Assembly: GCA_016709725.1 (NCBI GenBank)
Contig: JADJMG010000005.1
Span: 387,544 to 451,543 of the forward strand
DNA: 64,000 nucleotides
Direction of reading: 5' to 3'
Source of the DNA: Bacteroidota bacterium
GTDB lineage: Bacteria; Bacteroidota; Bacteroidia; AKYH767-A; OLB10
Shown: positions 15,587 to 64,000 of the stretch, in pieces
Layout: the number at the start of each line of letters is the position of its first letter
Numbering within the stretch: position 1 is the stretch's first letter
The notes under the pieces: generated by a model
The model's input: the letters and a program-made list of their open reading frames with translations, nothing else
The model's database searches: none
Told to the model about the DNA's origin: nothing
Made by a program: the position numbers and the translations under genes

Positions 15587-15849
15587 AGCAAATGATTTTT
15601 CTCTGGAAAAGGAGTTTTTAACTGGGATTCAATCATAGCTGTGAAATCTTCGGGAGATGGTAATTTAGAAAGATCAACACCCATATGAATCAAAAATCAT
15701 CGGGAGAGTTCATCCAATAATTTACGAGTGATGGAATATCCTCCATACTAATTTCACGAACCGACAAGTTGCTTTTTGACATCATCACAAATTTAATAGA
15801 TATTTTATTTAACTATGAAGCTCCCCATTTAAACTATTGCTTATTTGCT

Positions 15850-33992: not shown

Positions 33993-34457
33993 ATGAAATT
34001 GAAAATTTTGATGGCAAGCATTCTGAGCATATCTCTTTTTGCTTGCACCTCTAAACAAGAAGCTGAAGATGCTGCTAAGAACTCACCTTCGCCCGTTGAA
34101 GCTGCAGCTGAACAGCCGGAAGTACATGGAGTAGAGATAAAAGATCTTGCACTTACCAATCCACTCAATCAGGAATGGGTGACAAATGGTGAAAAAATTT
34201 ACGACAGCAAATGTTTGTCATGTCACAAGCTAACGGATGAAAAAGTAGTTGGTCCAGGTTGGAAAGGAATTACTCAACGAAGAAAACCGATTTGGATCAT
34301 GAACATGATTCTAAATGTAGAAATCATGTTGGATGAAGATCCAGAGGCGCAGCTTTTGCTTGAGCAATGTTTGATTCGTATGCCCAATCAAAACTTAACT
34401 CACGATGAAGCTCGACAAGTAGTTGAATTCATGCGTCACAATGACGGAGAAAAATAA
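33993..34457 (+). CDS. class I c-type cytochrome lipoprotein (probable electron donor to NosZ)
   Basis: Lipobox LFAC and a single CLSCHKL heme-binding site. Immediately upstream of nosZ. Confidence 0.7.
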   Translation: MKLKILMASILSISLFACTSKQEAEDAAKNSPSPVEAAAEQPEVHGVEIKDLALTNPLNQEWVTNGEKIYDSKCLSCHKLTDEKVVGPGWKGITQRRKPIWIMNMILNVEIMLDEDPEAQLLLEQCLIRMPNQNLTHDEARQVVEFMRHNDGEK

Positions 34458-34471
34458 ATACAAATCATCTA

Positions 34472-36484
34472 ATGACAACTATACATATGAAAATCTATCA
34501 TTTAATTACAGCCACTGCAGTTCCGCTTTTGCTGCTCGCATTAACGGGATGTGCTCCAAAAAATCCGACCCAAGCCATCACTGGCGATGCAGCTGAAAAA
34601 GTTTATGTTGCACCCGGAAAACACGATGCTTATTACAACTTTGTTTCTGGTGGATTTAGCGGACAAGTATCGGTTTATGGAATTCCATCTGGAAGGCTAT
34701 TCCGTGTCATTCCGGTTTTCTCTCAGGACCCACAAACCGGTTGGGGTTATTCAGAAGAGTCAAAACCAATGTTGAACACATCACATGGTTTTACTCCGTG
34801 GGACGACAGCCATCATATTGCATTGTCAACCACCAATGGTGAGCACGATGGAAAATGGGTTTTTATTAATGGAAATAACACACCTCGTATAGCACGCATC
34901 AGTTTAAAAACATTTCGCACCGAAGAAATCATTGAAATTCCAAATGCATCGGGAAATCACTCATCCCCTTTCCTAACTGAAAATTCAGAGTATGCTGTTG
35001 CCGGCACCCGTTTTTCATTCCCACTTGATTATGCTGGAGAAACAGTTGATGTTCCGATTAATTCTTATAAAAAGAATTTTAAAGGCACCGTATCTTTTGT
35101 GAGCATTAATAAAGAAAGTGGGAACATGGCTGTAGCCTTCCAACTGTTGTTACCTGGAATCAATTTCGATTTGTCAAGAGGTGGACGCGGTCCATCGAAA
35201 GATTGGTTCTTCTTTAGTTGCTATAACACAGAATTAGCAAATACTTTATTAGAGGTAAATGCATCTCAAAAGGACAAAGATTTTATAATGGCTGTAAACT
35301 GGAAAAAAGCAGAACAATATATTGCGGCTGGAAAAGGAAAGAAGTTAAACGTAAACTATGCACATAATGTCTATAGCGATGAAACACACACTTCCACTTC
35401 TACCATGTTAAAAGAAGTACTTGCACTCGATCCTATAGAGTTAAAAGACATCGTTTATTTTATGCCTTGTCCTAAATCTCCACATGGTTGCGACGTAGAT
35501 CCTAGTGGTAAGTATATTGTGGGATCTGGCAAGTTAGCAGCATTGATTCCTGTTTTCTCCTTTGATAAAATGATCGCCGCCATAGCAGCGAAAAATTTCG
35601 AAGGGGAGTTCGAAGGCATTCCTGTATTAAAATATGAATCTGTGCTGCACGGTGAAGTGAAGAAGCCCGGCTTAGGTCCTCTACATACAGAATTTGATGG
35701 AAAAGGATTTGCGTATACTTCGATGTTTGTTTCCTCTGAAATTGTAAAATGGAATATTGAAAATTTAACGGTCGTGGATCGAGTTCCTACATACTATTCT
35801 ATTGGACATCTAAGTATACCAGGAGGTCCAACGGCTAAACCCCATGGACAATATGTTATAGCTTACAATAAAATAACAAAAGATCGCTACTTACCTACTG
35901 GTCCTGAATTGACGCAATCGGCACAGATCTATGATATCTCTGGTGAGAAAATGAAATTACTACTAGACTTCCCAACCATTGGAGAACCACACTATGCAGA
36001 AGCAATTCCTGCAAAATTAGTTGAGCCTAACAGTACCAAATTCTTTAAGATAGAAGACAATAAACATCCTTACGTTACCAAAAGTGAAAAAGATGCGAAA
36101 GTTGTTCGTCAAGGGAATCAAGTACATGTTTATATGACATGCATTCGATCACATTTTGTTCCCGATAATATTGAAGGAATTAAAATGGGAGATGTGCTTT
36201 ACTTCCACATAACCAATCTTGAGCAGGATTGGGATGTGCCACATGGGTTTGCCATTAAAGGTGCAAACAATGCAGAATTATTAATCATGCCAGGTGAAAC
36301 AGCTACTTTAAAATGGAGCCCAGATCGCGTTGGAGTGAGTGCAATGTACTGCACCGATTTTTGCTCGGCTTTGCATCAAGAAATGCAAGGTTATATAAGA
36401 GTGTCACCGGCTGGATCATCAACTCCGTTGAAATGGGGAACTGGAGAAACACCAGAAGCAGGTCTAGCGGCTGAAGTAAAATAA
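34472..36484 (+). CDS. nosZ: nitrous-oxide reductase, clade II (Sec-dependent)
   Basis: A beta-propeller CuZ domain and a C-terminal CuA cupredoxin (CTDFCSALHQEMQG). The Sec-type lipoprotein signal is typical of clade II. Confidence 0.95.
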   Translation: MTTIHMKIYHLITATAVPLLLLALTGCAPKNPTQAITGDAAEKVYVAPGKHDAYYNFVSGGFSGQVSVYGIPSGRLFRVIPVFSQDPQTGWGYSEESKPMLNTSHGFTPWDDSHHIALSTTNGEHDGKWVFINGNNTPRIARISLKTFRTEEIIEIPNASGNHSSPFLTENSEYAVAGTRFSFPLDYAGETVDVPINSYKKNFKGTVSFVSINKESGNMAVAFQLLLPGINFDLSRGGRGPSKDWFFFSCYNTELANTLLEVNASQKDKDFIMAVNWKKAEQYIAAGKGKKLNVNYAHNVYSDETHTSTSTMLKEVLALDPIELKDIVYFMPCPKSPHGCDVDPSGKYIVGSGKLAALIPVFSFDKMIAAIAAKNFEGEFEGIPVLKYESVLHGEVKKPGLGPLHTEFDGKGFAYTSMFVSSEIVKWNIENLTVVDRVPTYYSIGHLSIPGGPTAKPHGQYVIAYNKITKDRYLPTGPELTQSAQIYDISGEKMKLLLDFPTIGEPHYAEAIPAKLVEPNSTKFFKIEDNKHPYVTKSEKDAKVVRQGNQVHVYMTCIRSHFVPDNIEGIKMGDVLYFHITNLEQDWDVPHGFAIKGANNAELLIMPGETATLKWSPDRVGVSAMYCTDFCSALHQEMQGYIRVSPAGSSTPLKWGTGETPEAGLAAEVK

Positions 36485-36495
36485 ATAATTCTCAA

Positions 36496-36528
36496 TGGGA
36501 CTCTTTGTTTAACCAAAGAGTCCCGTTA
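36496..36528 (+). terminator. stem-loop downstream of nosZ (possible attenuator/terminator)
   Basis: gggactctttg-tttaacc-aaagagtccc, a perfect 11-bp stem. Confidence 0.45.
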
Positions 36529-36532
36529 AGAA

Positions 36533-37579
36533 ATGAAATTAAAAACCATGAAACCTATATCGAGAATATTAATTGCACTTTCTTCTTTGTCCATGTTAGC
36601 CACATTTTATCTTCCACTTTGGCAGATTCAACTATGGGCACCTCAATATCCAGAGGGATTAAACATGAAAATTTGGCACAATCACTTAAGTGGAGCCTTC
36701 GATATCATCAATGGATTGAATCATTACATTGGCATGCGTTTGATTAAGGAAGAAATGTTTCCGGAATTGAAGTACATTGGTATTCTAATAGGAATATATA
36801 TTGCAATTGGTTTATTCACCGCGATAACAAATAAATTATCAATACTTAAAATTTACACCCTTACTGGGATCACTTACGGTGTTGCAGCGTTATACGATTT
36901 TTATCGCTGGGGTTATGATTACGGCCATAACTTGGATCCTCATGCAGCCATTCAAGTGCCTGGAATGAGTTATCAACCCCCTGTTATTGGATATAAAAAT
37001 CTACTCAACTTCACTGCTTATTCTGGTCCAGATAAAGGTGGATGGATTATAGTAATCGCTAGCGTAGTCGCTTTTTGTGTTTTAGTTTATACAATCTGGT
37101 CCAATAAAAAAGCAATAAAAAATAATTCCATTTCATCTAAGGCTGGAATGAGTGTTGCATCACTGCTTTCTATATTTTTATTTAGTGCTTGCAACTCAGC
37201 AGAACCTGCACCCATTCGTTTAGGAAAAGATGAATGTACAAATTGCAAAATGATCATCACGGATCCAAGATTTGGAGCCGAAATCATTACAAAAACAAAC
37301 AAGCTATTTAAATTCGATGATGTTAACTGCTTAAATAACTACATCAAAAACAACGAAAAAATACAGTCGCAAATTAACCATATCTACTTTGTTGACTATG
37401 GAATTGAATCCGGATTTGTATTAGCCAATCAAGCATTTTATCTTCAATCAGAAGAAATAAAAAGTCCTATGGGAAGTGCTGTGGCTGCCTTTAGTAACCA
37501 ACAACAACTAACTGAAACCGCCTCCAAGCTCACACAGAGCCAAGCAATTACCTGGAAGGAAGCAAGTAAAGTTTATTAA
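36533..37579 (+). CDS. nosL: 4-TM membrane domain (NosB-like position) fused in-frame to a NosL copper-chaperone lipoprotein domain
   Basis: About 200 aa of N-terminal TM helices, then an internal lipoprotein signal (MSVASLLSIFLFSAC) and the NosL motif IRLGKDECTNCKMII...FDDVNC. Confidence 0.65.
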   Translation: MKLKTMKPISRILIALSSLSMLATFYLPLWQIQLWAPQYPEGLNMKIWHNHLSGAFDIINGLNHYIGMRLIKEEMFPELKYIGILIGIYIAIGLFTAITNKLSILKIYTLTGITYGVAALYDFYRWGYDYGHNLDPHAAIQVPGMSYQPPVIGYKNLLNFTAYSGPDKGGWIIVIASVVAFCVLVYTIWSNKKAIKNNSISSKAGMSVASLLSIFLFSACNSAEPAPIRLGKDECTNCKMIITDPRFGAEIITKTNKLFKFDDVNCLNNYIKNNEKIQSQINHIYFVDYGIESGFVLANQAFYLQSEEIKSPMGSAVAAFSNQQQLTETASKLTQSQAITWKEASKVY

Positions 37580-37583
37580 GTCG

Positions 37584-38861
37584 ATGAGGTACCCATACAG
37601 CATACTTGTTATTATTCTGTTTGTATCTTTCAAACTGAACGCTGCTGTACTTACTTGCGGAAATAAAACAAATTATCCATCCATTCAAAATGCCATAAAT
37701 GCCGCTGTCCCTTATGACACCATTGAAGTTCAACCTGGACATTACAAACAGGGAAATCTACTCATCACCAAACCGATTTCAATGTTTGCAAAAGGCTTAG
37801 TTATTCTTGACGGTGATTTTAAATGCGAAATTATTACTATTAAAAGTAATCATGTTTTAATTCGCGGATTCTCTATAAAAAATAGCTCTAATTTAAGTAG
37901 TATCGATATTGCCGGAATCAAAGTACTAGCTTGCAAAGATGTTACCATTGAAAACAACAATGTAGAAAAATGTTCTTTTGGAATTTACTTATCAAACACC
38001 AATCATTGCAAAGTGAAAAACAATTTAATTTCTGGAAATGTATTAGCAGAAACTAATATTGGAAATGGTATACACTGTTGGAAAGCCGATAGCAATTCCA
38101 TTGAAAACAATGAAGTGACGAATCATCGTGACGGAATCTACTTTGAATTTGTAACGAACAGTAAAATCAACAAAAATATTTCTCATCAAAACTTACGTTA
38201 TGGATTGCACTTTATGTTTTCACATACCAATATTTATACAAACAACAAATTTTCAAACAATGGAGCTGGTGTGGCTGTGATGTACTCTCACCATGTTACC
38301 ATGAAGAATAATCTATTCGATTATAATTGGGGTGCTAGTGCCTATGGTTTATTATTAAAGGAAATAAACGACAGTGAAATCTCTGGGAACATCTTTACTT
38401 ACAACTCCGCAGCAATATACATGGAAGGAAGTAATCGTGTAAATATGACCAGCAATGTATTCAGCAATAATGGCTGGGCATTACGAATTCAATCCAGTTG
38501 TGTTGATAATGTAATCGAACGGAATAATTTTATAGGAAACACTTTTGATGTCTCGACCAATGGGGAAACACAACTCAGCAATTTCAATTCAAACTATTGG
38601 GATAAATACGAAGGCTACGATTTGAATCGAGATGGGCAAGGAGACGTTCCCTATCGTCCAGTGAGCCTCTTCTCGGTAATTGTCGAACAACTTCCCCCTT
38701 CTCTTTTATTATTAAGAAGCTTTATGGTTTACTTACTGGATAAATCTGAGAAAATAATTCCTTCTCTGACCCCTGAATATCTAATTGATCATAAACCAGT
38801 CATTAAAATGATTGCATTAGAAAACTTACCACTTGCCAATAGCAATACAAACAAAAAGTAA
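37584..38861 (+). CDS. nosD: nitrous oxide reductase maturation protein NosD (periplasmic right-handed beta-helix)
   Basis: Signal peptide and multiple parallel beta-helix repeats (NN.I..N...GI.L). Confidence 0.9.
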   Translation: MRYPYSILVIILFVSFKLNAAVLTCGNKTNYPSIQNAINAAVPYDTIEVQPGHYKQGNLLITKPISMFAKGLVILDGDFKCEIITIKSNHVLIRGFSIKNSSNLSSIDIAGIKVLACKDVTIENNNVEKCSFGIYLSNTNHCKVKNNLISGNVLAETNIGNGIHCWKADSNSIENNEVTNHRDGIYFEFVTNSKINKNISHQNLRYGLHFMFSHTNIYTNNKFSNNGAGVAVMYSHHVTMKNNLFDYNWGASAYGLLLKEINDSEISGNIFTYNSAAIYMEGSNRVNMTSNVFSNNGWALRIQSSCVDNVIERNNFIGNTFDVSTNGETQLSNFNSNYWDKYEGYDLNRDGQGDVPYRPVSLFSVIVEQLPPSLLLLRSFMVYLLDKSEKIIPSLTPEYLIDHKPVIKMIALENLPLANSNTNKK

Positions 38862-38887
38862 ACTAACCACTATTAACTAATATCAAA

Positions 38888-39463
38888 ATGAAAAAAAACA
38901 TTGCTTCAATTTTCGTCATGGGACTCGCTATGGGATCCTTGATGATCATCAACAGTTGCGGTTCAAAGACTGAAGAAAACACTTCGGCACCCAGCACAGA
39001 AGAATCCACAGAGTTAGGTGGCCAATCCGCTGTAAAGGATGATGACTCACAACAAGACATTGTTAAAGTTGCTTCTGGAAGTAAAGATCATACTACCTTA
39101 GTTGCAGCGATAAAAGCAGCAGAATATGTAGATGTCCTAAGTAATGCAGGTCCTTTCACCGTATTTGCACCTACGAATGATGCCTTTAACAAACTGCCAG
39201 AAGGAACCGTTGAAACATTAGTAAAACCTGAAAACAAAGATAAACTTCGTGATATTTTAGAATATCATGTAGCGGTAGCCGTTTATAAAACAGACATGTT
39301 TAAAGACGGACAAATCATAAACATGGCCAATCTAGGAAACGTAAAAATCTCCATTAAGAATGGAGAAATATTTATCAATGAAACAGCAAAAATCATTGGC
39401 ACGGTTCCTTCTTCAAATGGAATTATACATGTTATTGACAATGTACTTCTTGAAAAAAAATAG
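38888..39463 (+). CDS. fasciclin (FAS1) domain lipoprotein
   Basis: Lipobox IINSCG. FAS1 motifs TVFAPTNDAF and ILEYHV. Confidence 0.7.
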   Translation: MKKNIASIFVMGLAMGSLMIINSCGSKTEENTSAPSTEESTELGGQSAVKDDDSQQDIVKVASGSKDHTTLVAAIKAAEYVDVLSNAGPFTVFAPTNDAFNKLPEGTVETLVKPENKDKLRDILEYHVAVAVYKTDMFKDGQIINMANLGNVKISIKNGEIFINETAKIIGTVPSSNGIIHVIDNVLLEKK

Positions 39464-39465
39464 TT

Positions 39466-40185
39466 GTGATCGAATTTAACAACATTAGTAAATCGTTTGG
39501 CAAACTAAAAATTCTAGACCAACTAAATCTAGCGTTTTTTAAAGGGCAATCGATTGCGCTTATAGGTCCCAATGGCTCTGGAAAAACAACTTTAATTAAA
39601 TGCTTGTTAGGTTTGGTTGTTCCTACATCTGGCGAAATTAAAATTGATGGAGTAAATGCAATAGGATCTTGGATGCATCGCAGTAATATAGGATACATGC
39701 CTCAAATTGGAAGGTATCCTGATAACATTACTGTGATGCAGCTTTTTGAAATGATTAAAGAAATTCGAAAAGGCACATTCGTTAAGCTGGATGAAGAATT
39801 ACTTCATTCATTTGAAATTTTCAAATTTGAAAACAAAACCATGAGCTCCTTGAGCGGTGGAATGCGACAAAAAGTGAGTGCGTGTTTAGCATTTATGTTT
39901 GATCCAGAAATATTAATTCTGGACGAACCCACAGCAGGACTGGATCCCATCTCCTCAGAAATACTGAAAGAGAAACTAAAAAAGGAATTAACGAAAGGGA
40001 AACTTATTCTCATTACTTCACATATTTTAAATGATCTTGAAGACCTAACTAATGAAATTATTTACCTCAATGAAGGTAAAATAGTTTTTTTCAAGAAAGT
40101 AGAAGAACTAAAATCTGAAACTGGGTCCATAAATTTATCAAAAGCAATTGCTCGAATAATGGAGTTGCAAAACAACCTTTCTTAA
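39466..40185 (+). CDS. nosF: ABC transporter ATP-binding protein NosF
   Basis: Walker A GPNGSGKTT, signature LSGGMRQK and Walker B ILILDEPT. Lies in the nos cluster. Confidence 0.85.
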   Translation: MIEFNNISKSFGKLKILDQLNLAFFKGQSIALIGPNGSGKTTLIKCLLGLVVPTSGEIKIDGVNAIGSWMHRSNIGYMPQIGRYPDNITVMQLFEMIKEIRKGTFVKLDEELLHSFEIFKFENKTMSSLSGGMRQKVSACLAFMFDPEILILDEPTAGLDPISSEILKEKLKKELTKGKLILITSHILNDLEDLTNEIIYLNEGKIVFFKKVEELKSETGSINLSKAIARIMELQNNLS

Positions 40186-40192
40186 AAGATCA

Positions 40193-41107
40193 ATGATGAA
40201 AATGCGTAAATTTGATAATAAGTTGGGGAATCGACATAGGAATCAGATAGAAGGTTCAGGAACTTTCGCATCCGCAATTTTATTAAAACATGATGATCCG
40301 TCTACCATTAAAATGAGAACTTCAACCAAGAAATATTTACTTCTTCGTTTACTAAAATATGTTTTGCTCGATATTTTAAAGAATAGAATGGTTCTTTTTT
40401 ATACCCTCTTTCTATTAGCTACTTCCTTTGGATTATTTAGCATGAGCGGAGATCCCACTAAAGGAATTGCAAGCCTACTCAATATAGTTCTCCTCGTTAG
40501 TCCGTTATTAAGTTTAATTTTTTCTACGATCTACTTTTACAATTCTTATGAGTTCATCGAGCTATTATCAGCTCAACCCATCCAAAGAAAAACTATTCTA
40601 TACAGTCAATACTGGGGGCTTTGCATTTCACTAATTGTAGCGCTGGTTATTGGACTTGGAATTCCACTCTTACTTTTTGCTCCAGGGAAGGCTGCCCTTT
40701 CACTCCTTATCGTATCTTGCGGACTCACGATGGCATTTGTTTCCTTGGCCTTACTCGCGGCGCTACTCACAAGAGATAAAGCAAGAGGTATTGGATTATC
40801 GCTACTACTTTGGTTTTATTTTACGTTCATCTACGATGCTTTGATGTTGATGATCATGTTTGCCTACATTGATTATCCGATGGAAACACTAACCCTTACA
40901 ATGATCTCTTTAAACCCAATTGATCTTGCAAGAGTAATAGTATTATTGCAACTGGATGTATCCGCATTGATGGGATACACTGGAGCAATGCTTCAAGATC
41001 TTTTTAGCAGTGGTAAAGGAGTACTTTTAGCAAGCGGAGTGATGTTAATTTGGATATTAGCTCCTCTTAGATTAGCCATTAAACTTTTTAATAAAAGAGA
41101 TTTATAA
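40193..41107 (+). CDS. nosY: ABC-2 type permease NosY
   Basis: A 6-TM ABC-2 permease after nosF. The true start is probably the Met at about 40313. Confidence 0.8.
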   Translation: MMKMRKFDNKLGNRHRNQIEGSGTFASAILLKHDDPSTIKMRTSTKKYLLLRLLKYVLLDILKNRMVLFYTLFLLATSFGLFSMSGDPTKGIASLLNIVLLVSPLLSLIFSTIYFYNSYEFIELLSAQPIQRKTILYSQYWGLCISLIVALVIGLGIPLLLFAPGKAALSLLIVSCGLTMAFVSLALLAALLTRDKARGIGLSLLLWFYFTFIYDALMLMIMFAYIDYPMETLTLTMISLNPIDLARVIVLLQLDVSALMGYTGAMLQDLFSSGKGVLLASGVMLIWILAPLRLAIKLFNKRDL

Positions 41108-50661: not shown

Positions 50662-51243
50662 TTATTTCCATTCCAACGATTTCAATAAATGAATAACATC
50701 TTCTCGCAAATAATTTTGAACGGGCGCCAATGAATCGGCGTTGGGGAGGACGTTGAAATAGATCGCTCCTCTTAAAAAATGATTGACGCTATCAGTCACA
50801 AAAAATTGCGTTGCGGATGCGGCATCTCCACCGAGAGTATAGATCACGCCACTCACTCCTGGTTTAAACTGAATTACTTGTTCATCAATAGAACTTGCTC
50901 GTGCTGTGTGTTTATAAACCAAGGTGTGAGTATCGTCTAAATATTTATCTACATCACCATGCAAGGGTTTGTAGGTTAAATACAGTTGCGCATTTAAGGT
51001 AGGCATGATCAAATAATACCAGCAAGGTTCTGAAAGGGAATTCGTATCCTTAATGGGAATAGCATAATCCGGAATTTCAAATTTATACGGACATCCTTCT
51101 GGATTAAACATTTCATAGGTTCGCTCAGGCAAATCAATTCTAAAAAATCCGCGAGGCTTTGGATGCGTTTCTTCTTCGCCGCAGGAAGAAATTAACACAT
51201 TACTATGAATACGATTAGGATTTTTATTTTCATGGAGATGCAA
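50662..51243 (-). CDS. gldD: putative gliding motility lipoprotein GldD-like protein
   Basis: A 193-aa putative lipoprotein (SSCG lipobox). The mutY-ssb-gldD arrangement is conserved in Flavobacteriia. Assignment is by context and weak sequence memory. Confidence 0.45.
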   Translation of the reverse strand: MHLHENKNPNRIHSNVLISSCGEEETHPKPRGFFRIDLPERTYEMFNPEGCPYKFEIPDYAIPIKDTNSLSEPCWYYLIMPTLNAQLYLTYKPLHGDVDKYLDDTHTLVYKHTARASSIDEQVIQFKPGVSGVIYTLGGDAASATQFFVTDSVNHFLRGAIYFNVLPNADSLAPVQNYLREDVIHLLKSLEWK

Positions 51244-51254
51244 AGATGGGTGAT

Positions 51255-51415
51255 TTTAATTCAGAATTCAGAATTAAGAATTAAGAATTGTGTTCCGATA
51301 GCTATCGGGATGTGAATTGTGAATCGAGTCGCGAGGCTTCGCGATAAGTATTCTGATCGCGAAGCCTCGCGACTGAATTCTGAATTCTGCATTCTGAATT
51401 CTGAATTCTTAAAAC
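51255..51415. repeat. large composite palindromic intergenic element
   Basis: Outer gaattcagaatt/aattctgaattc arms around the inner cgcgaggcttcgcga...tcgcgaagcctcgcg arms, with ccgatagctatcgg in the centre-left. A similar cccgatatctatcggg occurs at 4247-4265. Confidence 0.55.
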
Positions 51416-51821
51416 GGAAGATCTCCGCCTAAATCCGTGTGTGGGGGGGTTGGATCGGTGGTTCCTAGGTCATTCGGACCGTTTTGTGCGTCGCGTTTAC
51501 TTAACATGGTCATATTTTCTGCTATGATTTCAGTCGCATAACGCTTGATACCATCTTTCTCCCAACTACGCGTTCGCAATTTACCTTCAATAAAACCATA
51601 TGCCCTTTTCGCAGGTGTAACTTCTCGGCTGCCTCTGCTAATCCGCGCCATAAAACGATATTATGCCATTCCGTTTGATCCTGACGATTCCCGTCTTTAT
51701 TCTTAAAGTACTCCGTGGTGGCTAATGGAAACTTTGCTACCATAATTCCGCCTTCCATGTGACGAAACTCGGGATCCTTACCTAAATTACCAATCAGAAA
51801 TACTTTGTTTACGCCAGACAT
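51409..51821 (-). CDS. ssb: single-stranded DNA-binding protein, frameshifted (fragments 51522-51821 and 51409-51651)
   Basis: An OB-fold N-terminus ([14 protein letters not shown]...WHNIVLWRG) and a C-terminal acidic tail ending DLPF in the second frame. Confidence 0.85.
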
Positions 51822-51916
51822 AAGAGATAGATTTTAGTTTAACGGGATAAGACTATTCGAGTAATGCTTAGGTCAAAGTTAGCCGTTATTCGATAATAGA
51901 AAAATTCTATTATCGA

Positions 51917-53570: not shown

Positions 53571-54406
53571 ATGAAAAGTGCACAACTGAGGATCATCCTC
53601 ATTGCCGGCACAATTCTACTTTCGGCAGCTCTTTATTTTGCGCCCTCTCAGTTAAACAAGAAAGGAGCAGAACCCAAGGCCGCAGCTGAAAATACAGAGG
53701 ACGAATTCAACCCGGAAGCCTTATTGCGATCGGCAAAAGCTTCTCTCGACACCAACGCTCTTCAACAGCTTGAGATCATTGAGAAAGCCTCCGCCCAAGC
53801 AAACAATCAAGATACTGCCTTACTAGACAGCATCGGCAAAATCTGGGATAAAAACGGAATACCGGCTGCTTCCGCCATTTGGTTTGAGCGAAAAGCACAA
53901 ATAGTAAAGAGTGAAACATCATACCTTGATGCAGCTTATCGCTATTTTGATTCTTTTCGAAATGGCCAATGACAGTATGATTCAGTCGTTATTAGTTGGT
54001 AAAGCCATCACCAACTATCAAAAGGTTTTAGAATTAAATCCGAACAACCTGAATGCAAAAACAGACCTTGGTGCCTGTTATGCCGATGGAACTTCGGAGC
54101 CTATGAAAGGGATTATGTTATTGCGTGATGTAGTAGCAGCCGATCCCAATCATGAAATGGCCCAATACAATTTGGGAATGCTATCGGTGAAATCAGGGCA
54201 ACTTGATAAAGCGATCGAACGATTCCAAAAAGTACCAGAAATAAATCCTCAAGAAGCGAAATGAACTTTACCTCGGTCAAGTTCATCTTCAAAAAGGAGA
54301 TACGGCAGCGGCCATACAGTCGTACGAAACGTTCATCAAGAATGCGAAGTATGATGTATCCGATGTCATTAAAATGGTTCAAGCACTCAAGAAGAAAACT
54401 TCTTGA
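53571..54406 (+). CDS. tetratricopeptide-repeat protein, interrupted by about 2 frameshifts (pieces 53571-53972, 53911-54264, 54262-54406)
   Basis: N-terminal TM anchor, then TPR-like segments continuing across three frames (..YNLGMLSVKSGQLDKAIERFQK.. / ELYLGQVHLQKGDTAAAIQSYE..). Confidence 0.6.
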
Positions 54407-56462: not shown

Positions 56463-59400
56463 ATGAATAAAAACCGAATAGCAAATTTCTTAGGATTTCT
56501 GACAACTGCGACTATCACAGGAGTTGGACTTTCCATGACATCCAATCAGTTTGTTGGTGGAGCAATCATTGGGCTTGGTATTGAATTGGGTTCAGGTTTC
56601 ATTGAGTCAGTTTGCTCAAAACTCAAAAAGAATTGGACTAAAGAAAATTATGGACTTTTAAATCATGACATTCAAAAGTCATTACAACGAAGTATTGTGG
56701 CGGCTCTGAATGATATGCAGACAGAATGCCTTACAATGCCATTTGCACCTGACGAAAGAGAACCCATCAAAAACTTTTATGACAGTTTGATTAAGGAATC
56801 AAAAGAAGATTTCTTCCACAAGTATTTAGAAGATAAGAATGACAACATACTAAAAGATCTTATAAACAAAAACTCTTCAACCTTTGAGAAAGACATTACT
56901 GATGGAATCTACAACGAAGAATTACTTTCAACTTTCAGTTTGTCTTTTAAGCATTACTTCAAAGAAACTTTAGTAAAGAAATTACGGTTTTGGTTTACAG
57001 AAGATTTGAAGGGTGAAGGCGATGAAAATAAAAGAGCAAGAGTAGCGTATGAAAAAATTCTGTTGGAGAGCATTGAAAACACATTACAAGAGCAGTGCAA
57101 TAAAATAACATCTCTTCAAACCCAAGTGGGTTTGATTTTTGAAAATTCAATTAGAGCAATCAATGAAGGAAAACAATTCAAGAAACACTTCAAAAACTCT
57201 TTCCACAATTTCCTTCTTTTTCTTTAGTAACAATTCCGCAAGAGGAAAGTAACAACGCAGATAAATTCTATGACGGTTTCCCCCCGCAACTTGAAGATTT
57301 AAAAGCAAATTTTGATTTTCCAAGAAATCTTTATTTAAAAGATAGTGGAGTTAAGTCAAGAATAAACGAACTAACATCATCTGATGCACACTTTGTAAAA
57401 TTCATTCTGATAAAAGGAGTTGGGGGTAGTGGAAAATCTACATTGCTCAAAAGAATTTCGTTTGACCAAACAATAATTGGCAAGAATGTTTTTACCTAAA
57501 CAAAGATTGGTTTGAGGACAAACAAATCAACAAACTTCAAACTCAAATAAAACGACTTGCCGAATCTTATCCCGATTGTGTAATAGTACTTGATGACATT
57601 GCTGATTGTATTTTAAGAGAAGAAATAAATTTTCCCGAACTCATTAATTCACTAAGTTCAAAAAGGATTTTGTTTGTTCTTGCTGACCAACCTGACAGAT
57701 GGAACAGAGTAACTCCCAAGGTGAGGGAGCTAAATACAGCAGGACAACTTCTCTCATTCGACTTACACCAACTTGACGAAATTGAATGCGAAGATTTAGC
57801 GGATAAAATGATTGAACTTGAATCTGAGGAAAAACTTTCAATCAGACACCTTGAATTGACAAAGGAAGAACGAGTAAAACTTTGTAAGGAAAATTCTAAA
57901 AGACACTTTGTAGTCGCAATGCTGCAAATCCGATATGGTAAAAGGTTCAGCGATATTATAATTGAAGAATTTGAAAAAATACCATCAGAGAAAGGTAAAG
58001 AAGCATATCTGATGGTTTGCTTTTGCAATCATTTAGGACTTTCAATTCCTGAATCCATTGTTATCAGTGCTTTGCACTTAACATCTTCTCTTAGCATAAA
58101 TGAATTTCATTCCTACACGGAAGGAATCGTTATTTTCAGTAAGTATGGTTTATCTTCAAGACACCCAATAATAGCCCGTGAAATTATCCGCAACTTTGTC
58201 AAAACAAAATTGAATTTCATTTCAACCTAAAACAAATATTCTCCTCATTAGGTGAAAACAAAATAGAAGTTTCAGATTTCTTAGACAGCTTCTTATCAAA
58301 GGAAAATATTCACAAAACCTTAGCAAAGATATTAGAAAAGGACATTGTTTTAATTGAGGATATTATTCAGATAATAGAAAGCAAGAAACATCTTTTAGAA
58401 AAAGATTTGCTTATCAAGTTGATGAGTTTTTATGGAATGACTGAACGATTGATTGGAAATGACGAGAAGGCGTTAGAAATTTTCAAACAGATTATTAGTG
58501 AGATCGACAAGGGGTATTCTTTTTGCGTATCGGCAAATCGGCTGGATAGAACACGACAATCAGAACTATGATGAAGCTGCAAATTATGCGATTCAATCCT
58601 ATCAGTATTCAAATGAAAATCCCGAACACATTATTCAGATTGCAAAGCTTTTGGCTCTTAATACAGTTAAGAATTTTAGAGAAGCAAAAAAATATTATGT
58701 AGCAGCACTTGAAAAAAGTAACAAGGACAAGTATTACCAAGAAGAACTTGAAAAATATACTGATGCAGAAAATGCACTGAACTACTTTTCGCAGTTATAC
58801 GATGATGACTTCATTCCAGACGATATTATCAAAGCGCTAAGACCAGGACTTAACTTTTTCAGAATCTATTTTCACACTAATTCAAAAGAGTTTAAAAATA
58901 AACTCATCAATGTTCTTCATGGAATGGAAGGCGATACCAAGGGAAGCATTGAAGACCTTGACGCAGTTGTTGAAGGTTTCAACATCAAGAAAGACAAGTT
59001 AGTAAGTAGTAAATACTACGGCAATCTTGCACGAATTATGTATTTGGAGTGGTATAAAAATGAAAAAAATAATTGACCCTACTAAGATACTTGAGGTTTT
59101 CCAAACCAGTTTAACTTTAAATTCAAATGACCCATTTACTCATTGTTGGTTAGGAACATTCTATAAAGAAGTTTTGAAAGATTTTGTAACAGCAGAAGCC
59201 GAATACAAAAAAGCAATTGCCCTTTCAAAGAATTCTAAATACGAACATGACAAAGACCACCCACTCTTTTCAAATAATCTTGCTCTCTTGATTATGGATG
59301 AAGTGGTTGCTGACAAACTTCCAAAAGAAAAATTATTTGAGGCAAAATCTCTTTTAGATTTTTCTGTAAAAGTTAATACCGAAAAACAATCAAGTTTTTA

Positions 59401-59464
59401 TTGGGCAGAACATAATCTCTCAAAGTGTTTGGACTTAATTGACAGATATAAATTGACTTCGTAA
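56463..59464 (+). CDS. NLR-like STAND/NACHT-type NTPase (N-terminal glycine-zipper/helical domain, P-loop NTPase, helical region, C-terminal TPR repeats), split over 6 frame segments
   Basis: Segments 56463-57227, 57167-57499 (Walker A FILIKGVGGSGKSTLLKRI), 57457-58230 (Walker B CVIVLDDIADC), 58182-58568, 58498-59076 and 59027-59464 (TPR-like). The junctions overlap at A/T homopolymers. Confidence 0.6.
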
Positions 59465-59734
59465 CCTTGAATAAAATGACGAACACAACTCCGAACTTTC
59501 ATCTTTGTGGCGAGAGTAAAACTGCAGGTAACATGGGGTTTTCGATAGTGGGTGTTTCGTGCTCCGCAGACACATTTGTACAAGGTGGAATCCTGCCTGC
59601 CGGCATGCAGGTTCAGTTCCCCGCATGAGGATTAGAGTTAAGACTCATCATCATCGAACCTATTACAGAACCAATTGTTTTACTGTTACAGACTTACAAA
59701 ATGGACAGAGCAAATCGAAAAAAGCCCAACTCTC

Positions 59735-60100
59735 CAAACCAAGCCCTTCGTTGCTTCCATTTTGAAAACTGATTTTGGAAATTCAAATCTTTTCAATTGA
59801 AATGGTTCAAGAAATATAAAAGCTGCGTGAAGATTGAACCCATCTCCTCCTACCATTTAATGGAATTTCATTTTTTGAATAAGCAGGGGGAAGAGATAAA
59901 GCTTTAAGCGCTTTTTTTTCTTGGAAGTTTACGACTTCTACAATACCTATTTCTTATTTCTTAATTGCTATTTGTCGCCTGTGGCTATTTAGTACGTATT
60001 TGTACTTAGTGAAAACTTTTTGGTGGGGCTAAATGGGTGTTGGGTTGGTTTAAAAAGTATATTTGGGAAAGGGAAATGTGAGTTAAGCCTACAGACTAGG
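59735..60100 (+). repeat. right (diverged) copy of the direct repeat; still encodes an RNase G C-terminus-like peptide FWKFKSFQLKWFKKYKSCVKIEPISSYHLMEFHFLNKQGEEIKL
   Basis: Alignable to 56020-56380 at both nucleotide and protein level. Confidence 0.7.
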
Positions 60101-60181
60101 TAAGGGCAGGATAAACGAAATAGAAGTTCGGCATTAATACTTTAGATAATATTATAAAAAACCACAACCTGAAAGAAACGA

Positions 60182-62288
60182 ATGCATATTTCAAAGTTTA
60201 CAGCATTTAATTTTAGAAGTCTTAGACAAGTTGTTTCTTTACGATTTGAAGGTGGGAGAAATGTCATTGTTGGTAAAAACAATTCGGGTAAGTCGAATAT
60301 TATTAAAGGGATTGAAATTCTAATTGGCGAAAAATTTCCAACCTATATCAATTTCACAGACAACGATTTTTATACTTACGAGGCAGTTGATGAAGACACA
60401 GGAGAATTTCGAGAAGTTGTTTCAGACAATCTTTATTTAGAGGTTGAATTAGCAGGAAGAGATTTTGATGAAACTTTACTAAATACAATTAAAAAACAAA
60501 CCGCATTTTCAAGAGTAGAAAATTCCGCTTCTCTTTATCATAAACTAGAAAATGGAGAATTCAAAGCAAATTATGACTTCTTTCAAAGTCTTGACGACAT
60601 TGAGAGTAGGCCTGAAGTAATCGTTTGCGGCGAAAATCTAGGTGGAAGACAAAAGAAAACGGAATGGAAAAAACCTGAAAACCTCATTGCTTTTTTTAAA
60701 ATCAGCAAGGACAATCAAACTCTTTTTTTTGTAAATCCCGAACGGATGATGAAAAGTCAGGTTTCGGTTTGATTTGCGTTGATTCAAATGGATTAATTTG
60801 GGTATCACATTTCTTATCAAAAAAATTAAGAGATTCTTTAATTACAACAACTGTAATAAGTGCACTTCGTAGTCAAAAAGAAGATTTGAGATTGGTTCAT
60901 TATACATGGTTTGGAAAACTAATAAAAGGCTTATGGGAGGACAATAAAGCAAGCACTCATCCAACCGAACAAAAATCTTATGAGGAACTTATCAAATCAA
61001 AATCAATAGATATAAAGCGTTTCGTTGATGAGGTTTTTCGTAAGGATACTACTGAAATAAGAAAACTTTTAGAAGGTGCAATAGCTCATAAAGAAATTTC
61101 ATTCCGTTTTATGAATGATACAACAAATGAGTTATACAAAAATATTCAACTTTTTGTTAATGATGGAATAGATAGGCCCCTTTACGAAAAAGGAACAGGG
61201 ATTCAAAGTGCAATAATAATTTCTTTGTTTTCTCTGTATTGTAACGAGTATCATAATAATAGTTCTCTTTTAATTGCAGAAGAACCAGAGTTGTTCTTAC
61301 ATCCACAAGCAAGAAGAGTTATATCGGCCGAATTGGATAAGTTTTTAAATGGTTCTCAAGAACAACAACGCCAACTTATTATTAGTACACACTCTGTGGA
61401 GTATCTGAAAAATGTTGACCCCTTTAATATAATTCGTGTATATAAGGATAGTATCAATAATTGTTCGATAGTTAAACAACTTGACCAAGCAACATCTCAA
61501 CAAATCACAACAGAACTTAAGAGATTTCTTTGGTCGAACAATACGGAACTCTTTTTGCTGACAAGGTTGTCTTAGTTGAAGGAGGTGAAGTTTATTTAAT
61601 TCCATCAATAGTTGACAAATTAAAAGGTTTTAAACAATTATTAGACTATCAAAACATTACGGTTTCAAGAGTAAATGGTAAAGGAAGCTTTTTGACATAT
61701 GTTAAAATGTTACAATGCTTTGATATTGAATTTATTATACTAGGAGATTTAGATTGTTTTAAGGACGAAGTACCTAAACTAATTAAGCATTTAAAAATTA
61801 ATGCAATAATAGAAAATGCAGGGAAAATTAAAACTGCGATTTCTTCATTGCCAATTAGTTATGAAGCTATTGATGAACGAGTAAAGGGAGTTGATAGAAA
61901 CTATGATTCACAAACTCTACAAAGCCTTTTTGAAAAATTTGCAAGTGGAGAAATCGAAAAAGACAATGAAGATCTTCTTGCAATTATTCAATTTATGCAA
62001 TTACGTTACACTAAAGGAGATAAAGAAGAAGTGATTATTGAATCGGTTGGAGAAGAAGAATTTAACACTGTACTTTCAACTCTCAGAGACAATAACATTT
62101 TCATTTGGTCAAAGGGTGATCTTGAATGTTACTATTCAGACAAATCAAAAGCATTAAACGGAAGTAAAGACATCAAAGCACTTGAATTATCATATCTATT
62201 ACAGGTTGAAACAGAAAATATAGAAGATTTAATTCTACATCTTGACGAAGTAAAACAACTTATCGAAACGATATTGAAAAAAGAATAA
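60182..62288 (+). CDS. OLD-family ATP-dependent endonuclease (ABC-type ATPase + TOPRIM), split into 3 frames (60182-60772, 60769-61575, 61530-62288)
   Basis: N-terminal FNFRSL...VIVGKNNSGKSNIIKGIE (Walker A). Middle LLIAEEPELFLHPQARR (Walker B/D-loop) and ISTHS (H-loop). C-terminal KVVLVEGGEVYL and ILGDLD (TOPRIM E and DxD). Confidence 0.65.
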
Positions 62289-62455
62289 CATCAGCTAACA
62301 GCCGTTTAGCAAAAAAGGGGGGTTAGTGCTTGAATGTGTGCTACTAGACATTTAGTGCTTCGAAATCCGCTTCTTCGCCAAGCACCAAACCGTTATTTGT
62401 TATTATAGCAACCGCTGAACATATCTAACTTAGAAACAAAATTAAATTAAAATGT

Positions 62456-64000
62456 ATGTCTGTAGATACAAAAGAAATTGAGAAATTATTAGTAAAATCA
62501 TACAATGAAGGTTTCTCAAATTTAAATTTTAGCTATTTTGATTTAAGAGAAATTCCATTCTTTATTTTAGAACGCCCTTTATTATTAAATCAAAAGCGTA
62601 AAGATGGTTCAGATTCTGAAGAATATGAAAATTTGAATTTGGAGAAAGTACGAGAATTAAATTTATCTAATAACTATCTTACTCAAATAGACACAAAAAT
62701 ATCATGTTTTAAAGGACTTCAAACCTTAGATATTTCAAATAATAAACTAGAACAGCTTCCACGACAAATATGTGAACTTGGAAACTTAAAAGAAGTAATT
62801 GTCAATAACAATCCTCTAATTAATTTACCTCAAAAGTTTGCATCATTTCAAAAGCTTGAAATTCTTGATCTATCCAATACAGCGATTTATGAAATACCAA
62901 ACTATATTCAATATCTGTATAATTTAAAAGAACTAAATTTAGCTAATTGTAAATTAAGTGTACTACCTAAAAGAATTATACTACCTTCCAAATCTTAAGA
63001 TTCTTAACATTACAGGTAATCCACTCATTGACCCTCCTATTGAAATAGCCTCAAAGGGTATAGATTACGTAAAATATTATTATGACGAAATTGACTCTTC
63101 AATAGAAAAAGATTTCTTGTATGAAGTAAAACTTCTACTAATCGGTGAAGAAAGAGCAGGAAAATCAACCATTGCCGAATCACTATCAAATCCAAATTAT
63201 GAGTTTGATTTATACAAAAACAGCACACAAGGTATAGACATCAAAAAATGGACAATAAATCAAGATAAATTAAATATTGAAAAGGATTTTCAAGTCAATA
63301 TTTGGGACTTTGGTGGTCAGGAAATTTATCATGCAACCCATCAGTTTTTTTTTCACAAAACGTTCGTTGTATTTTCTAGTAACAGAGGCTCGAAAAGATT
63401 TAAGGCACGATGACTTATTTTATTGGTTGAATCTAATTGAGATTTTAGGAAACAATAGTCCCGTAACGATTTTAATAAATAAAAGCGACCAACCATATAC
63501 GTTCTTTGCAACAGATGCCTACCGAGAAAAATTTCCTAATATTTTAGGAACAAAAAACATTAGTTGCTTGCCCGAATACAAAAATACAATTGAAGAATTA
63601 AGAGAAGTAGTCTATTCAATATTGTCTAATAAAGATTTAATGCCTGATATTGGAGTTGAACTACCTAAGGTTTGGATAGATATTCGGAACGAATTAAATA
63701 GTATTAAAGATGCTGGAGTTTTTTATATTAAAACTAGTAGATACTTTTCAATTTGTAAAAAATTTGGAATGAATGAAGAAAGATCTCTTTTTTTAAGTGA
63801 CTACTTTCATGACCTTGGAGTATTTCTCCATTTCCAAAATGATTTAGTTTTAAAAGATACTGTTTTTTAAATTTTGAGTGGGTTACGAATGCGGTTTACT
63901 GCATACTCGATAATCCTAGAATAGTTTCTAATCATGGCTTCTTTAATGATACTGATTTAGAGATTATTTGGAAGAAAAACTATTATTTTGATAAAAGGTT
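62456..64000 (+). CDS. ROCO-type protein (LRR - Roc small GTPase - COR), fragmented by several frameshifts and running off the window
   Basis: LRRs (LxxLxLSNNxLxxLP, 62456-62998). Roc G1 KLLLIGEERAGKST, G3 IWDFGGQE (62958-63413) and G4 NKSD (63277-63870). COR-like sequence continues in another frame to 64000. Confidence 0.6.

What the first reader, a model, noticed from the sequence alone, without database searches (positions are those of the whole stretch)
60182..62288. OLD-family ATPase/TOPRIM nuclease (Gabija GajA / PARIS-like) fragmented into three frames
It has the ABC-ATPase motifs (Walker A GKNNSGKSN; Walker B/D-loop LLIAEEPELFLHP; H-loop ISTHS) and a C-terminal TOPRIM (VVLVEGGE; ILGDLD), so this is an OLD-family nuclease. 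These act as anti-phage effectors, either alone (class 1 OLD) or as GajA of Gabija and AriA/AriB of PARIS. No UvrD-like GajB follows. An LRR-Roc-COR protein follows instead, so this may be a stand-alone class-1 OLD or a new pairing. The ORF1/ORF2 overlap (60700-60772) contains T7 and T8 runs, the likeliest site of a homopolymer slip. The ORF2/ORF3 overlap (61521-61575) has only a short T5 run.
Basis: partly seen in the sequence, partly recalled or inferred. Interest (0 to 1): 0.6.

Follow-up and report, generated by a model that had tools for sequence, protein, structure and literature searches.

The report
Stand-alone OLD nuclease, frameshifts likely sequencing errors
This is an ordinary single-gene anti-phage OLD nuclease of a Bacteroidota bacterium, and its apparent break-up into three reading frames most probably comes from miscounted runs of T in the assembly, because near-identical DNA from two other samples reads straight through.

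Summary
Window 60182-62288 (+) encodes an OLD-family protein: an ABC ATPase (Pfam AAA_15) followed by an OLD-like TOPRIM domain, with all catalytic motifs present.

The gene carries three single-base frameshifts, not two. They lie in T runs at 60691-60697 (T7), 60723-60730 (T8) and 61552-61556 (T5). Repairing them gives a 701-aa protein, collinear with about 100 full-length Bacteroidota homologues of roughly 700 aa (up to 87-88% identity).

Two short-read metagenome contigs are 99.7-99.8% identical to the window and carry T6, T7 and T6 at these sites, so their frames are intact. Over 4.6 kb they differ from the window by 7 homopolymer indels (2 of them intergenic) and only 3 substitutions.

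Both neighbouring genes are also frameshifted, and so are core genes elsewhere in the window, including the syntenic ssb. I therefore read the fragmentation as homopolymer miscalls in the assembly (about 0.8). Real slippage pseudogenes are the main rival (about 0.15).

No UvrD helicase, reverse transcriptase or other conserved partner sits next to the 16 homologue loci examined. The LRR-Roc-COR neighbour recurs only in the near-identical contig L001. This is a stand-alone class 1 OLD in a small defence island. Low interest.

The parts
60182..62288 (+). OLD-family nuclease gene (ABC ATPase + TOPRIM). It encodes 701 aa once three single-base homopolymer errors are repaired.
   Evidence: Pfam on the repaired protein gives AAA_15 over residues 1-404 as one stretch (E 4.8e-34) and OLD-like_TOPRIM over 457-524 (E 2.7e-14). 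About 100 full-length homologues of roughly 700 aa were found. The AF2 model has mean pLDDT 81.9, and its best Foldseek match is 6p74, Ts OLD.
60691..60697 (+). Frameshift 1. The window has T7 where the near-identical contig L018 has T6 (one extra T). The frame moves from that of MHIS...LIAF to that of LKSARTIKLFF.
   Evidence: L018 versus window alignment. P0121 matches the repaired N-terminus at 100% over 237 aa. Homologues P0001 and P0002 read LIAFL(Q/K)(S/A)A(K/R)TIKLFFCKSR.
60723..60730 (+). Frameshift 2. The window has T8 where L018 has T7 (one extra T). The frame moves to that of CKSRTDDEKSG...
61552..61556 (+). Frameshift 3. The window has T5 where the near-identical contig L001 has T6 (one T missing).
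   Evidence: L001 versus window alignment. P0054 (465 aa) is 100% identical to the repaired protein across this junction.
60272..60295 (+). Walker A / P-loop GKNNSGKS (repaired residues 31-38).
   Evidence: G31, K32, N33, N34, G36, K37 and S38 are invariant in the 37-sequence alignment A1. Coordinates.
61189..61305 (+). ABC signature KGTGIQS (336-342), Walker B LLIAEEPE (362-369) and the following LHP (372-374).
   Evidence: These residues are invariant columns in A1 and align to the Ts OLD motifs. Coordinates.
61384..61395 (+). H-loop STHS (401-404).
   Evidence: T402, H403 and S404 are invariant. They align to Ts OLD 'YSTHS'.
61569..61589 (+). TOPRIM glutamate motif VLVEGGE. E466 aligns with Ts OLD E377 (metal A) and E469 with Ts OLD D381 (metal B).
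   Evidence: HMMER alignments to 6p74. Residue roles come from PMC7049728. V465, E466, G467 and E469 are invariant.
61743..61754 (+). TOPRIM DxD motif GDLD. D522 and D524 align with Ts OLD D431 and D433 (metal A).
   Evidence: G521, D522 and D524 are invariant.
62115..62126 (+). GDLE (645-648), the probable second metal-B pair. It would correspond to Ts OLD S478/E480 and P2 Old D541/E543.
   Evidence: G645 and E648 are invariant, and D646 is the consensus residue but below 90% conservation. The equivalence is inferred from the motif pattern in PMC7049728. No HMM alignment reached this region.
56463..59464 (+). Upstream neighbour: an nSTAND-type P-loop NTPase with C-terminal TPR repeats, split into six frame pieces. 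It is not a conserved partner of the OLD gene.
   Evidence: Six overlapping frame pieces. Five one-base homopolymer edits give a 1000-aa ORF that matches Pfam nSTAND_NTPase5 (E 1.1e-12, 48.4 bits against a cut-off of 34) plus TPR. The last junction (A7 at 59063-59069) is A6 and in frame in L018. The gene is absent from 16 OLD-homologue loci.
62456..64000 (+). Downstream neighbour: an LRR-Roc-COR (ROCO-type GTPase) gene that runs off the window and has at least 3 frameshifts. It is not a conserved partner.
   Evidence: Pfam gives LRR_8/LRR_4, Roc and COR-A on successive pieces. The first junction, A4 at 62969-62972, is A3 and in frame in L001. Further shifts lie at the T9 run at 63345-63353 and near 63860. 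The gene is found next to the OLD gene only in L001.

Best explanation
The locus is one gene for a stand-alone (class 1) OLD-family nuclease of a Bacteroidota chromosome. It sits in a low-GC defence island between an nSTAND-TPR NTPase gene and an LRR-Roc-COR gene.

The intact product is 701 aa. An N-terminal ABC ATPase carries Walker A K37, the signature KGTGIQS, Walker B EEPE and the H-loop H403. By analogy with Ts OLD, P2 Old and Vc OLD, this domain dimerises and controls a C-terminal TOPRIM two-metal nuclease (E466, E469, D522, D524 and probably D646/E648). That nuclease nicks or degrades DNA and blocks phage replication.

Shown here: the domain identity, the motif conservation, the OLD fold, the lack of a conserved partner, and that three one-base homopolymer changes are the only lesions. 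Inferred: the biochemical activity and the anti-phage role.

The split into three frames is most probably not biological. It reflects homopolymer-length miscalls in the assembly the window comes from, concentrated in this island. The real gene is most likely intact.
For: Identity:
- Pfam AAA_15 plus OLD-like_TOPRIM on the pieces and on the repaired protein.
- PADLOC ranks Old first at 155.9 bits.
- The best PDB sequence match is 6p74, Ts OLD class 1, with profile E 3e-24 and the metal-A residues aligned.
- Foldseek on the AF2 model (pLDDT 81.9) ranks 6p74 first, then GajA, then the Retron-Eco8 OLD.
- All ATPase and TOPRIM motif residues are invariant in 37 homologues.

Stand-alone status:
- Neighbours differ in all 16 homologue loci: integrases, PLD nuclease, type I/III restriction-modification genes, NACHT, LigD, gluconolactonase.
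- None of these loci encodes the window's neighbours.

Artefact:
- L018 and L001 come from two different samples and match window 58702-60988 and 60828-63301 at 99.74% and 99.84%.
- They differ from the window by 7 one-base homopolymer indels and 3 substitutions. Two of the indels are intergenic (59773, 59912).
- All 5 coding indels break the frame in the window only.
- P0121 and P0054 equal the repaired protein at 100%.
- The repaired gene has no nonsense codon or other lesion.
- The same one-base homopolymer lesions split core genes: the syntenic ssb (repair restores ...GGDLPF), a GNAT gene (twice) and a TPR gene.
- Other fragmented copies of this family sit in assemblies whose ORFs are broken throughout (L004, L007).
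Against: - Frameshift density is very uneven: about 11 in 56.4-64 kb against about 4 in the other 56 kb. Homopolymer density is similar in the two parts, and genes such as nosZ and nosD match their full profiles. A uniform error process does not predict this. It requires locally poor consensus, for example low coverage of a strain-variable island, which I cannot check.
- The window's NosZ and MutY proteins are not on record at 100% identity in the collection. L001 and L018 may therefore come from a different strain carrying the same island, and real differences are not excluded.
- Both contigs end inside the OLD gene with unrelated sequence.
- The read data and the sequencing platform of the window are unknown.
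Confidence: 0.8

Rival explanations
1. The frameshifts are real. In this strain the whole three-gene defence island (nSTAND-TPR, OLD, LRR-Roc-COR) has been inactivated by replication slippage at short A/T runs, under relaxed selection or in a mismatch-repair-deficient lineage. Intact alleles persist in related populations.
For: Lesions are about 30 times denser in the accessory island than in the core part of the window. The intact versions come from other samples, whose core genes are not shown to be identical. Defence genes are dispensable and often decay (general knowledge).
Against: - There are 7 indels against 3 substitutions in 4.6 kb. My rough expectation for natural divergence, from general knowledge and not computed here, is about one indel per ten substitutions. 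Under that assumption, at least 7 indels among 10 differences has a probability of about 5e-6.
- Two of the indels lie in intergenic homopolymers.
- There are no nonsense mutations, larger deletions or other decay.
- The syntenic ssb, normally essential, carries the same kind of lesion with its C-terminal tip intact in the other frame.
Confidence: 0.15
2. The T runs are contingency tracts or programmed frameshift sites. The gene would be switched on and off by phase variation, or decoded through ribosomal or transcriptional slippage.
For: The lesions lie in T6-T8 runs. Phase-variable restriction and defence genes are known (general knowledge).
Against: Three independent shifts would all have to be corrected at once. 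One tract is only T5/T6, and neighbouring lesions are in runs as short as A3/A4. All roughly 100 full-length homologues are single uninterrupted ORFs. The same lesions occur in intergenic DNA and in unrelated genes.
Confidence: 0.02
3. The OLD gene is one component of a multi-gene system: Gabija-like, PARIS-like, or a new pairing with the LRR-Roc-COR or nSTAND gene.
For: The three genes lie head to tail on the same strand. Some GajA and AriA models score well: PADLOC GajA PDLC00070 at 143.9 bits and AriA at 121.6 bits. In L014 and L015 a 1778-aa NACHT protein lies upstream of the homologue.
Against: No UvrD/GajB-like gene, no separate AriB and no reverse transcriptase lies in the window or in any of 16 homologue loci. 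Neither window neighbour recurs next to a homologue. ATPase and TOPRIM are fused in every intact homologue.
Confidence: 0.03

Closest known systems
Class 1 OLD family nucleases: Thermus scotoductus OLD (PDB 6P74), phage P2 Old, Vibrio cholerae Vc OLD, E. coli YbjD
   Same: [quoted passage not shown] The metal-A residues align residue for residue with Ts OLD E377/D431/D433, and E469 aligns with the metal-B ligand D381. It gives the best sequence, profile and fold match among solved structures, and PADLOC ranks its Old model first. It has no conserved neighbour, which is the defining context of class 1 (PMC10568477).
   Different: It is only about 16% identical to Ts OLD. At 701 aa it is longer than the 528-residue 6p74 chain. 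In the model, the extra length lies in a beta-rich region between Walker A and the signature motif, and in a mostly helical stretch of about 120 residues between GDLD (524) and GDLE (645). It lies in a defence island or mobile element context, whereas the review describes class 1 genes as not proximal to other defence genes. No activity has been tested.
Gabija GajA (class 2 OLD), e.g. Bacillus cereus VD045 GajA (PDB 8SM3, 8U7I)
   Same: It has the same two-domain fold (Foldseek E 1.7e-18 to 3.7e-17). Several PADLOC GajA models score nearly as well as Old. A helical region lies within the C-terminal half.
   Different: No GajB (UvrD/PcrA-like helicase) gene lies downstream in the window or in any homologue locus.
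PARIS AriA/AriB (class 4)
   Same: The ATPase part matches the PADLOC AriA model (121.6 bits). In the window as read, the ATPase and TOPRIM parts fall in separate ORFs.
   Different: The separation is produced by a one-base T-run difference that is absent from L001. In every intact homologue the two domains are fused.
Retron-associated OLD (class 3, Retron-Eco8)
   Same: Fold-level similarity to the Retron-Eco8 effector (9x94, E about 7e-15).
   Different: There is no reverse transcriptase gene next to it and no Rfam match in 50-64 kb.

Membership tests
OLD family nuclease | N-terminal ABC-type ATPase with Walker A, signature, Walker B, D-loop region and H-loop | tested here: met
   Pfam AAA_15 covers residues 1-404 of the repaired protein (E 4.8e-34). 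GKNNSGKS, KGTGIQS, LLIAEEPE, LHP and STHS are present and invariant in 37 homologues.
OLD family nuclease | C-terminal TOPRIM domain with the conserved glutamate and DxD (metal A site) | tested here: met
   Pfam OLD-like_TOPRIM matches the full profile. E466, D522 and D524 align with Ts OLD E377, D431 and D433.
OLD family nuclease | Metal B ligands (Ts OLD D381, S478, E480; P2 Old E402, D541, E543) | tested here: inconclusive
   E469 aligns with D381. GDLE 645-648 (G645 and E648 invariant) fits the (D/S)xE pattern, but no alignment to a solved structure reached it. The geometry was not measured on the model.
OLD family nuclease | Overall fold like solved full-length OLD proteins | tested here: met
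   AF2 model with pLDDT 81.9 and pTM 0.79. The top Foldseek hits are 6p74, GajA and the Retron-Eco8 OLD.
OLD family nuclease | ATP hydrolysis and metal-dependent DNA cleavage | not testable with these tools
   Needs purified protein.
Class 1 OLD (stand-alone) | Single gene with no conserved helicase, reverse transcriptase or other partner | tested here: met
   Window neighbours are an nSTAND-TPR gene and an LRR-Roc-COR gene. The 16 homologue loci have unrelated neighbours, and none carries the window's neighbours.
Class 1 OLD (stand-alone) | Shorter protein lacking the class 2 helical insert in the TOPRIM region | tested here: inconclusive
   The protein is 701 aa, with a mostly helical segment of about 120 residues between GDLD and GDLE. 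Whether this corresponds to the class 2 insert was not resolved.
Class 2 OLD / Gabija GajA | [quoted passage not shown] | tested here: not met
   The downstream gene is LRR-Roc-COR. No helicase neighbour appears in any homologue locus.
Class 4 OLD / PARIS (AriA + AriB) | ATPase and TOPRIM nuclease encoded as two separate genes | tested here: not met
   The two domains are fused in about 100 intact homologues. The split here is a one-base T-run difference absent from L001.
Class 3 OLD / retron effector | Adjacent reverse transcriptase and ncRNA | tested here: not met
   No reverse transcriptase domain in the neighbours. No Rfam family in 50-64 kb.
Programmed frameshift or phase-variable gene | The frame change is conserved in relatives, or confined to a dedicated long tract | tested here: not met
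   Relatives are single ORFs. There are three sites per gene in runs of 5-8 bases, and the same lesions occur in intergenic DNA and unrelated genes.

The most novel reading that the evidence does not exclude
The homopolymer frameshifts are real. This strain would have switched off an entire three-gene immune island (nSTAND-TPR, class 1 OLD, LRR-Roc-COR) by slippage at short A/T runs, while intact alleles differing by under 0.1% in substitutions circulate in related populations. That would be a snapshot of very fast, potentially reversible loss of defence. Separately, this roughly 700-aa Bacteroidota clade, with its extra helical segment of about 120 residues between the two TOPRIM metal motifs, could be a distinct subclass of class 1 OLD.
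Probability: 0.12. Interest if true: 0.35.

Novelty: new member of a known kind. Interest (0 to 1): 0.12.

Why it matters
Biologically it matters little. It adds one more uncharacterised class 1 OLD nuclease, from a widespread Bacteroidota clade whose members public sources already label as OLD-family endonucleases.

Its practical value is as a caution. A gene that looks fragmented, together with its broken neighbours, would be called a pseudogenised defence island or mistaken for a split PARIS-like system. Near-identical contigs show the breaks are one-base homopolymer differences, most likely introduced by the assembly. Defence-system censuses on such assemblies would under-count or misclassify this locus.

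Tried and rejected
- My first repair inserted one T at the T8 run. It gave ...FKISKDNQTLFFCKSR, which disagrees with homologues (...FLKAARTIKLFFCKSR). I replaced it with the two-deletion repair, which P0121 and L018 later confirmed.
- Looking up the frameshifted ORF1 product as an exact protein, to see whether the lesion recurs in another assembly, found nothing on record.
- Identifying the source genome failed. Exact look-ups of NosZ and MutY found nothing. One search used wrong minus-strand coordinates and is void. The genome-contig scan found only relatives at 72% identity or less, and the metagenome-contig scan only relatives at 76% or less.
- There are no tRNA or tmRNA genes in the window. 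Rfam gives no family at gathering score in 50-64 kb. In the 59.4-60.2 kb spacer the only hit is a chance-level RsaOG match (E 0.23).
- PADLOC gives no convincing hit for the nSTAND-TPR or LRR-Roc-COR genes.
- A literature search for the sample label YUYA23 found nothing.
- I considered programmed frameshifting, phase variation, and PARIS-like or Gabija-like readings, and rejected them for the reasons given under the rival explanations.
- I did not use the third protein search or the representative search. The three OLD sites were already covered by independent contigs.
Full report
**1. What is in the sequence**

Three overlapping + strand ORFs occupy 60182-60772, 60769-61575 and 61530-62288. 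Pfam places ORF1 on AAA_15 positions 1-92 (E 1.4e-12), ORF2 on AAA_15 positions 192-370 (E 4.3e-22), and ORF3 on the complete OLD-like_TOPRIM profile (E 8e-15). PADLOC gives Old, GajA and AriA models for all three pieces.

**2. Anatomy of the breaks**

Comparison with the closest homologues shows three lesions. P0001 and P0002 (87% and 85% identity) read ...LIAFL(Q/K)(S/A)A(K/R)TIKLFFCKSR(I/T)DDEKSGFGL.... In the window these residues are spread over three frames:
- LIAF is in the ORF1 frame.
- LKSARTIKLFF is in the third frame.
- CKSRTDDEKSG is in the ORF2 frame.

The frame therefore changes once in the T7 run (60691-60697) and again in the T8 run (60723-60730). The third change is in the T5 run (61552-61556). 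Removing one T from each of the first two runs and adding one T to the third gives a 701-aa ORF with no other defect. On this repaired protein AAA_15 matches as a single stretch over residues 1-404 (E 4.8e-34), and the TOPRIM domain covers 457-524.

**3. Are the breaks real?**

The protein search returned two fragments that are 100% identical to the repaired protein, and I fetched the contigs that encode them.
- P0054 (465 aa) spans the third junction.
- P0121 (269 aa) spans the first two junctions.
- L001 (ENA ERZ28653985, sample label SAMN37110671) matches window 60828-63301 at 99.84%. It has T6 where the window has T5, and A3 where the window has A4 at 62969. The latter is the first break of the downstream gene.
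- L018 (ENA ERZ28654048, sample label SAMN37110684) matches window 58702-60988 at 99.74%. It has T6 and T7 where the window has T7 and T8, and A6 where the window has A7 at 59063, the last break of the upstream gene. It also differs at two intergenic runs: T5 against T4 at 59773, and T7 against T8 at 59912.

Over about 4.6 kb the window therefore differs from independent data by 7 one-base homopolymer indels and only 3 substitutions. The indels go in both directions. Every coding indel destroys a frame in the window and none does in the contigs. Natural divergence at 0.07% substitutions should bring less than one indel; that expectation is my general knowledge of indel-to-substitution ratios, not a computation here.

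The lesion type is not confined to the island.
- The ssb gene lies beside mutY and gldD. It is cut at 51584-51602, and adding one T restores a 137-aa SSB ending in the canonical ...GGDLPF.
- A GNAT acetyltransferase gene has two such lesions (15578-15600 and 15681-15704).
- A TPR gene has one (T4 at 53954).

A frameshift in the syntenic, normally essential ssb argues for error rather than biology.

Other fragmented members of this OLD clade in public data also lie in assemblies with broken ORFs throughout: P0104 on L007, and P0130 on L004, a MAG contig.

The main counter-argument is the uneven density of lesions. The upstream gene is in six frame pieces, the OLD gene in four, and the downstream gene in at least four. 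That makes about 11 lesions in 7.6 kb, against about 4 in the remaining 56 kb. Homopolymer density is similar in the two parts: 75 against 479 runs of 5 or more bases. Genes such as nosZ, nosD and yfcH match their full profiles. An assembly explanation therefore needs locally poor consensus, for example low coverage of a low-GC, strain-variable island; GC falls from about 0.41 to 0.29-0.35 here. I cannot test that.

In addition, the window's NosZ and MutY are not on record at 100% identity. L001 and L018 may therefore be from another strain that shares the island.

I put 0.8 on artefact and 0.15 on real slippage pseudogenes. I put about 0.02 on phase variation or programmed frameshifting, which would need three simultaneous corrections and is not seen in any homologue.

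**4. What the gene is**

The repaired protein has about 100 full-length relatives of roughly 700 aa in Bacteroidota, including Arcicella, Spirosoma, Mucilaginibacter, Pedobacter and Chitinophagaceae. Several are already labelled 'ATP-dependent endonuclease of the OLD family'.

In a 37-sequence alignment the following residues are invariant:
- Walker A residues G31-S38
- signature residues K336-S342
- Walker B residues E366-E369
- H373
- T402-S404
- V465-E466-G467 and E469
- G521-D522 and D524
- G645 and E648

The best solved relative by sequence is Thermus scotoductus OLD (6p74, class 1): E 1.6e-18 with the single sequence and 3e-24 with the profile. Query E466, E469, D522 and D524 align with Ts E377, D381, D431 and D433. 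Those are the metal-A triad and one metal-B ligand defined in PMC7049728.

The AlphaFold2 model (mean pLDDT 81.9, pTM 0.79) finds 6p74 first, then GajA (8u7i, 8sm3), then the Retron-Eco8 OLD (9x94). On the full protein PADLOC ranks Old (155.9 bits) above the best GajA model (143.9) and AriA (121.6).

**5. Context and class**

OLD classes are defined by gene neighbourhood (PMC10568477):
- class 1: alone
- class 2: with a UvrD-like GajB helicase
- class 3: in retrons
- class 4: PARIS, with the ATPase (AriA) and the TOPRIM nuclease (AriB) as separate proteins (abstracts listed)

In the window the upstream gene becomes, after five homopolymer repairs, a 1000-aa nSTAND_NTPase5 plus TPR protein. The downstream gene is an LRR-Roc-COR protein.

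I examined 16 loci carrying homologues, at 60-86% identity by tblastn. Their neighbours are integrases, a PLD nuclease, type I and type III restriction-modification genes, a D12 methylase, a 1778-aa NACHT protein, LigD and housekeeping genes. None encodes the window's neighbours. There is no helicase, reverse transcriptase or separate AriB.

The gene therefore meets the class 1 definition, and the 'new pairing' is not supported. Unlike the review's generalisation, this clade often sits in defence islands or integrative elements.

**6. How it most likely works**

This section is inferred from the family. The ABC ATPase head dimerises and gates the TOPRIM two-metal nuclease, which nicks or degrades DNA. 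In P2 Old and Vc OLD both active sites are needed in vivo, and Vc OLD blocks phage genome replication as a nickase (PMC7049728; PMC12392090). Nothing here tests activity.

The protein is about 170 residues longer than the 528-residue 6p74 chain. In the model the extra length lies in a beta-rich region between Walker A and the signature motif, and in a mostly helical segment of about 120 residues between GDLD and GDLE. Whether the helical segment corresponds to the class 2 insert is unresolved.

**7. Verdict**

This is a real and ordinary class 1 OLD gene, a new member of a known kind. The fragmentation that made it look interesting is most likely an assembly artefact. Interest is low.

Noticed in passing
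window 56463-59464 (+): A gene split into six frame pieces. Five one-base homopolymer repairs turn it into a 1000-aa protein with a glycine-rich, hydrophobic N-terminal segment, a P-loop NTPase matching Pfam nSTAND_NTPase5 (Walker A GVGGSGKS) and C-terminal TPR repeats. It looks like an Avs/STAND-type immune sensor with an unknown N-terminal effector. It has no PADLOC hit.
   Followed up: partly
window 62456-64000 (+), runs off the window: A prokaryotic ROCO protein (LRR, Roc GTPase and COR-A domains) with at least three homopolymer frameshifts: A4 at 62969, T9 at 63345, and a site near 63860. The first of these is intact in L001. The gene's role is unknown and it has no PADLOC model.
   Followed up: partly
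window 51525-51833 (-), lesion at 51584-51602: The ssb gene beside mutY and gldD is frameshifted at a T4 run. Adding one T restores a 137-aa SSB ending in GGDLPF. A broken essential gene is a strong hint that the assembly has homopolymer errors.
   Followed up: yes
window 15239-15850 (-), lesions at 15578-15600 and 15681-15704; window 53571-54261 (+), lesion at 53954: A GNAT acetyltransferase gene (two lesions; 183 aa when repaired) and a TPR protein gene (one lesion) are also split by one-base homopolymer differences. Both lie outside the island.
   Followed up: partly
L001 1-118 and L018 2285-2317: Both near-identical short-read contigs end inside the OLD gene, at window 60828 and 60988 respectively, so their matches overlap by about 160 bp. 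Each ends in sequence unrelated to the window or to any fetched locus. In L018 this creates a stop codon (P0121 ends ...KSYEER). The cause is undecided: chimeric contig ends, or a real rearrangement or insertion in those populations.
   Followed up: partly
window 59465-60181: A 717-bp spacer between the nSTAND gene and the OLD gene has no convincing ORF, tRNA or Rfam match. It is nonetheless conserved in L018 apart from two homopolymer lengths. Its first ~250 bases look more GC-rich by eye than the surrounding island (not measured).
   Followed up: partly
window 33993-41107 (+): An intact nitrous-oxide reductase cluster: a Sec-dependent NosZ matching the full TIGR04246 profile, NosD, and a c-type cytochrome upstream. 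The host is a Bacteroidota bacterium (GldD is at 50665-51255) with the genes for N2O reduction.
   Followed up: no
L014 4257-9590 and L015 3687-9023; L012 and L017: In two soil metagenome loci the OLD homologue lies just downstream of a 1778-aa NACHT-domain protein. In two others it lies between a tyrosine integrase and a PLD-family nuclease. Members of this clade travel in defence islands and integrative elements.
   Followed up: partly
L004 10001-12099 and L007 10001-12107: Two other public copies of this OLD clade (72-86% identity) are also fragmented. They sit in assemblies where most ORFs are short, and their lesions are not restricted to long homopolymers. This gene family is repeatedly mis-called as split in noisy assemblies.
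   Followed up: partly
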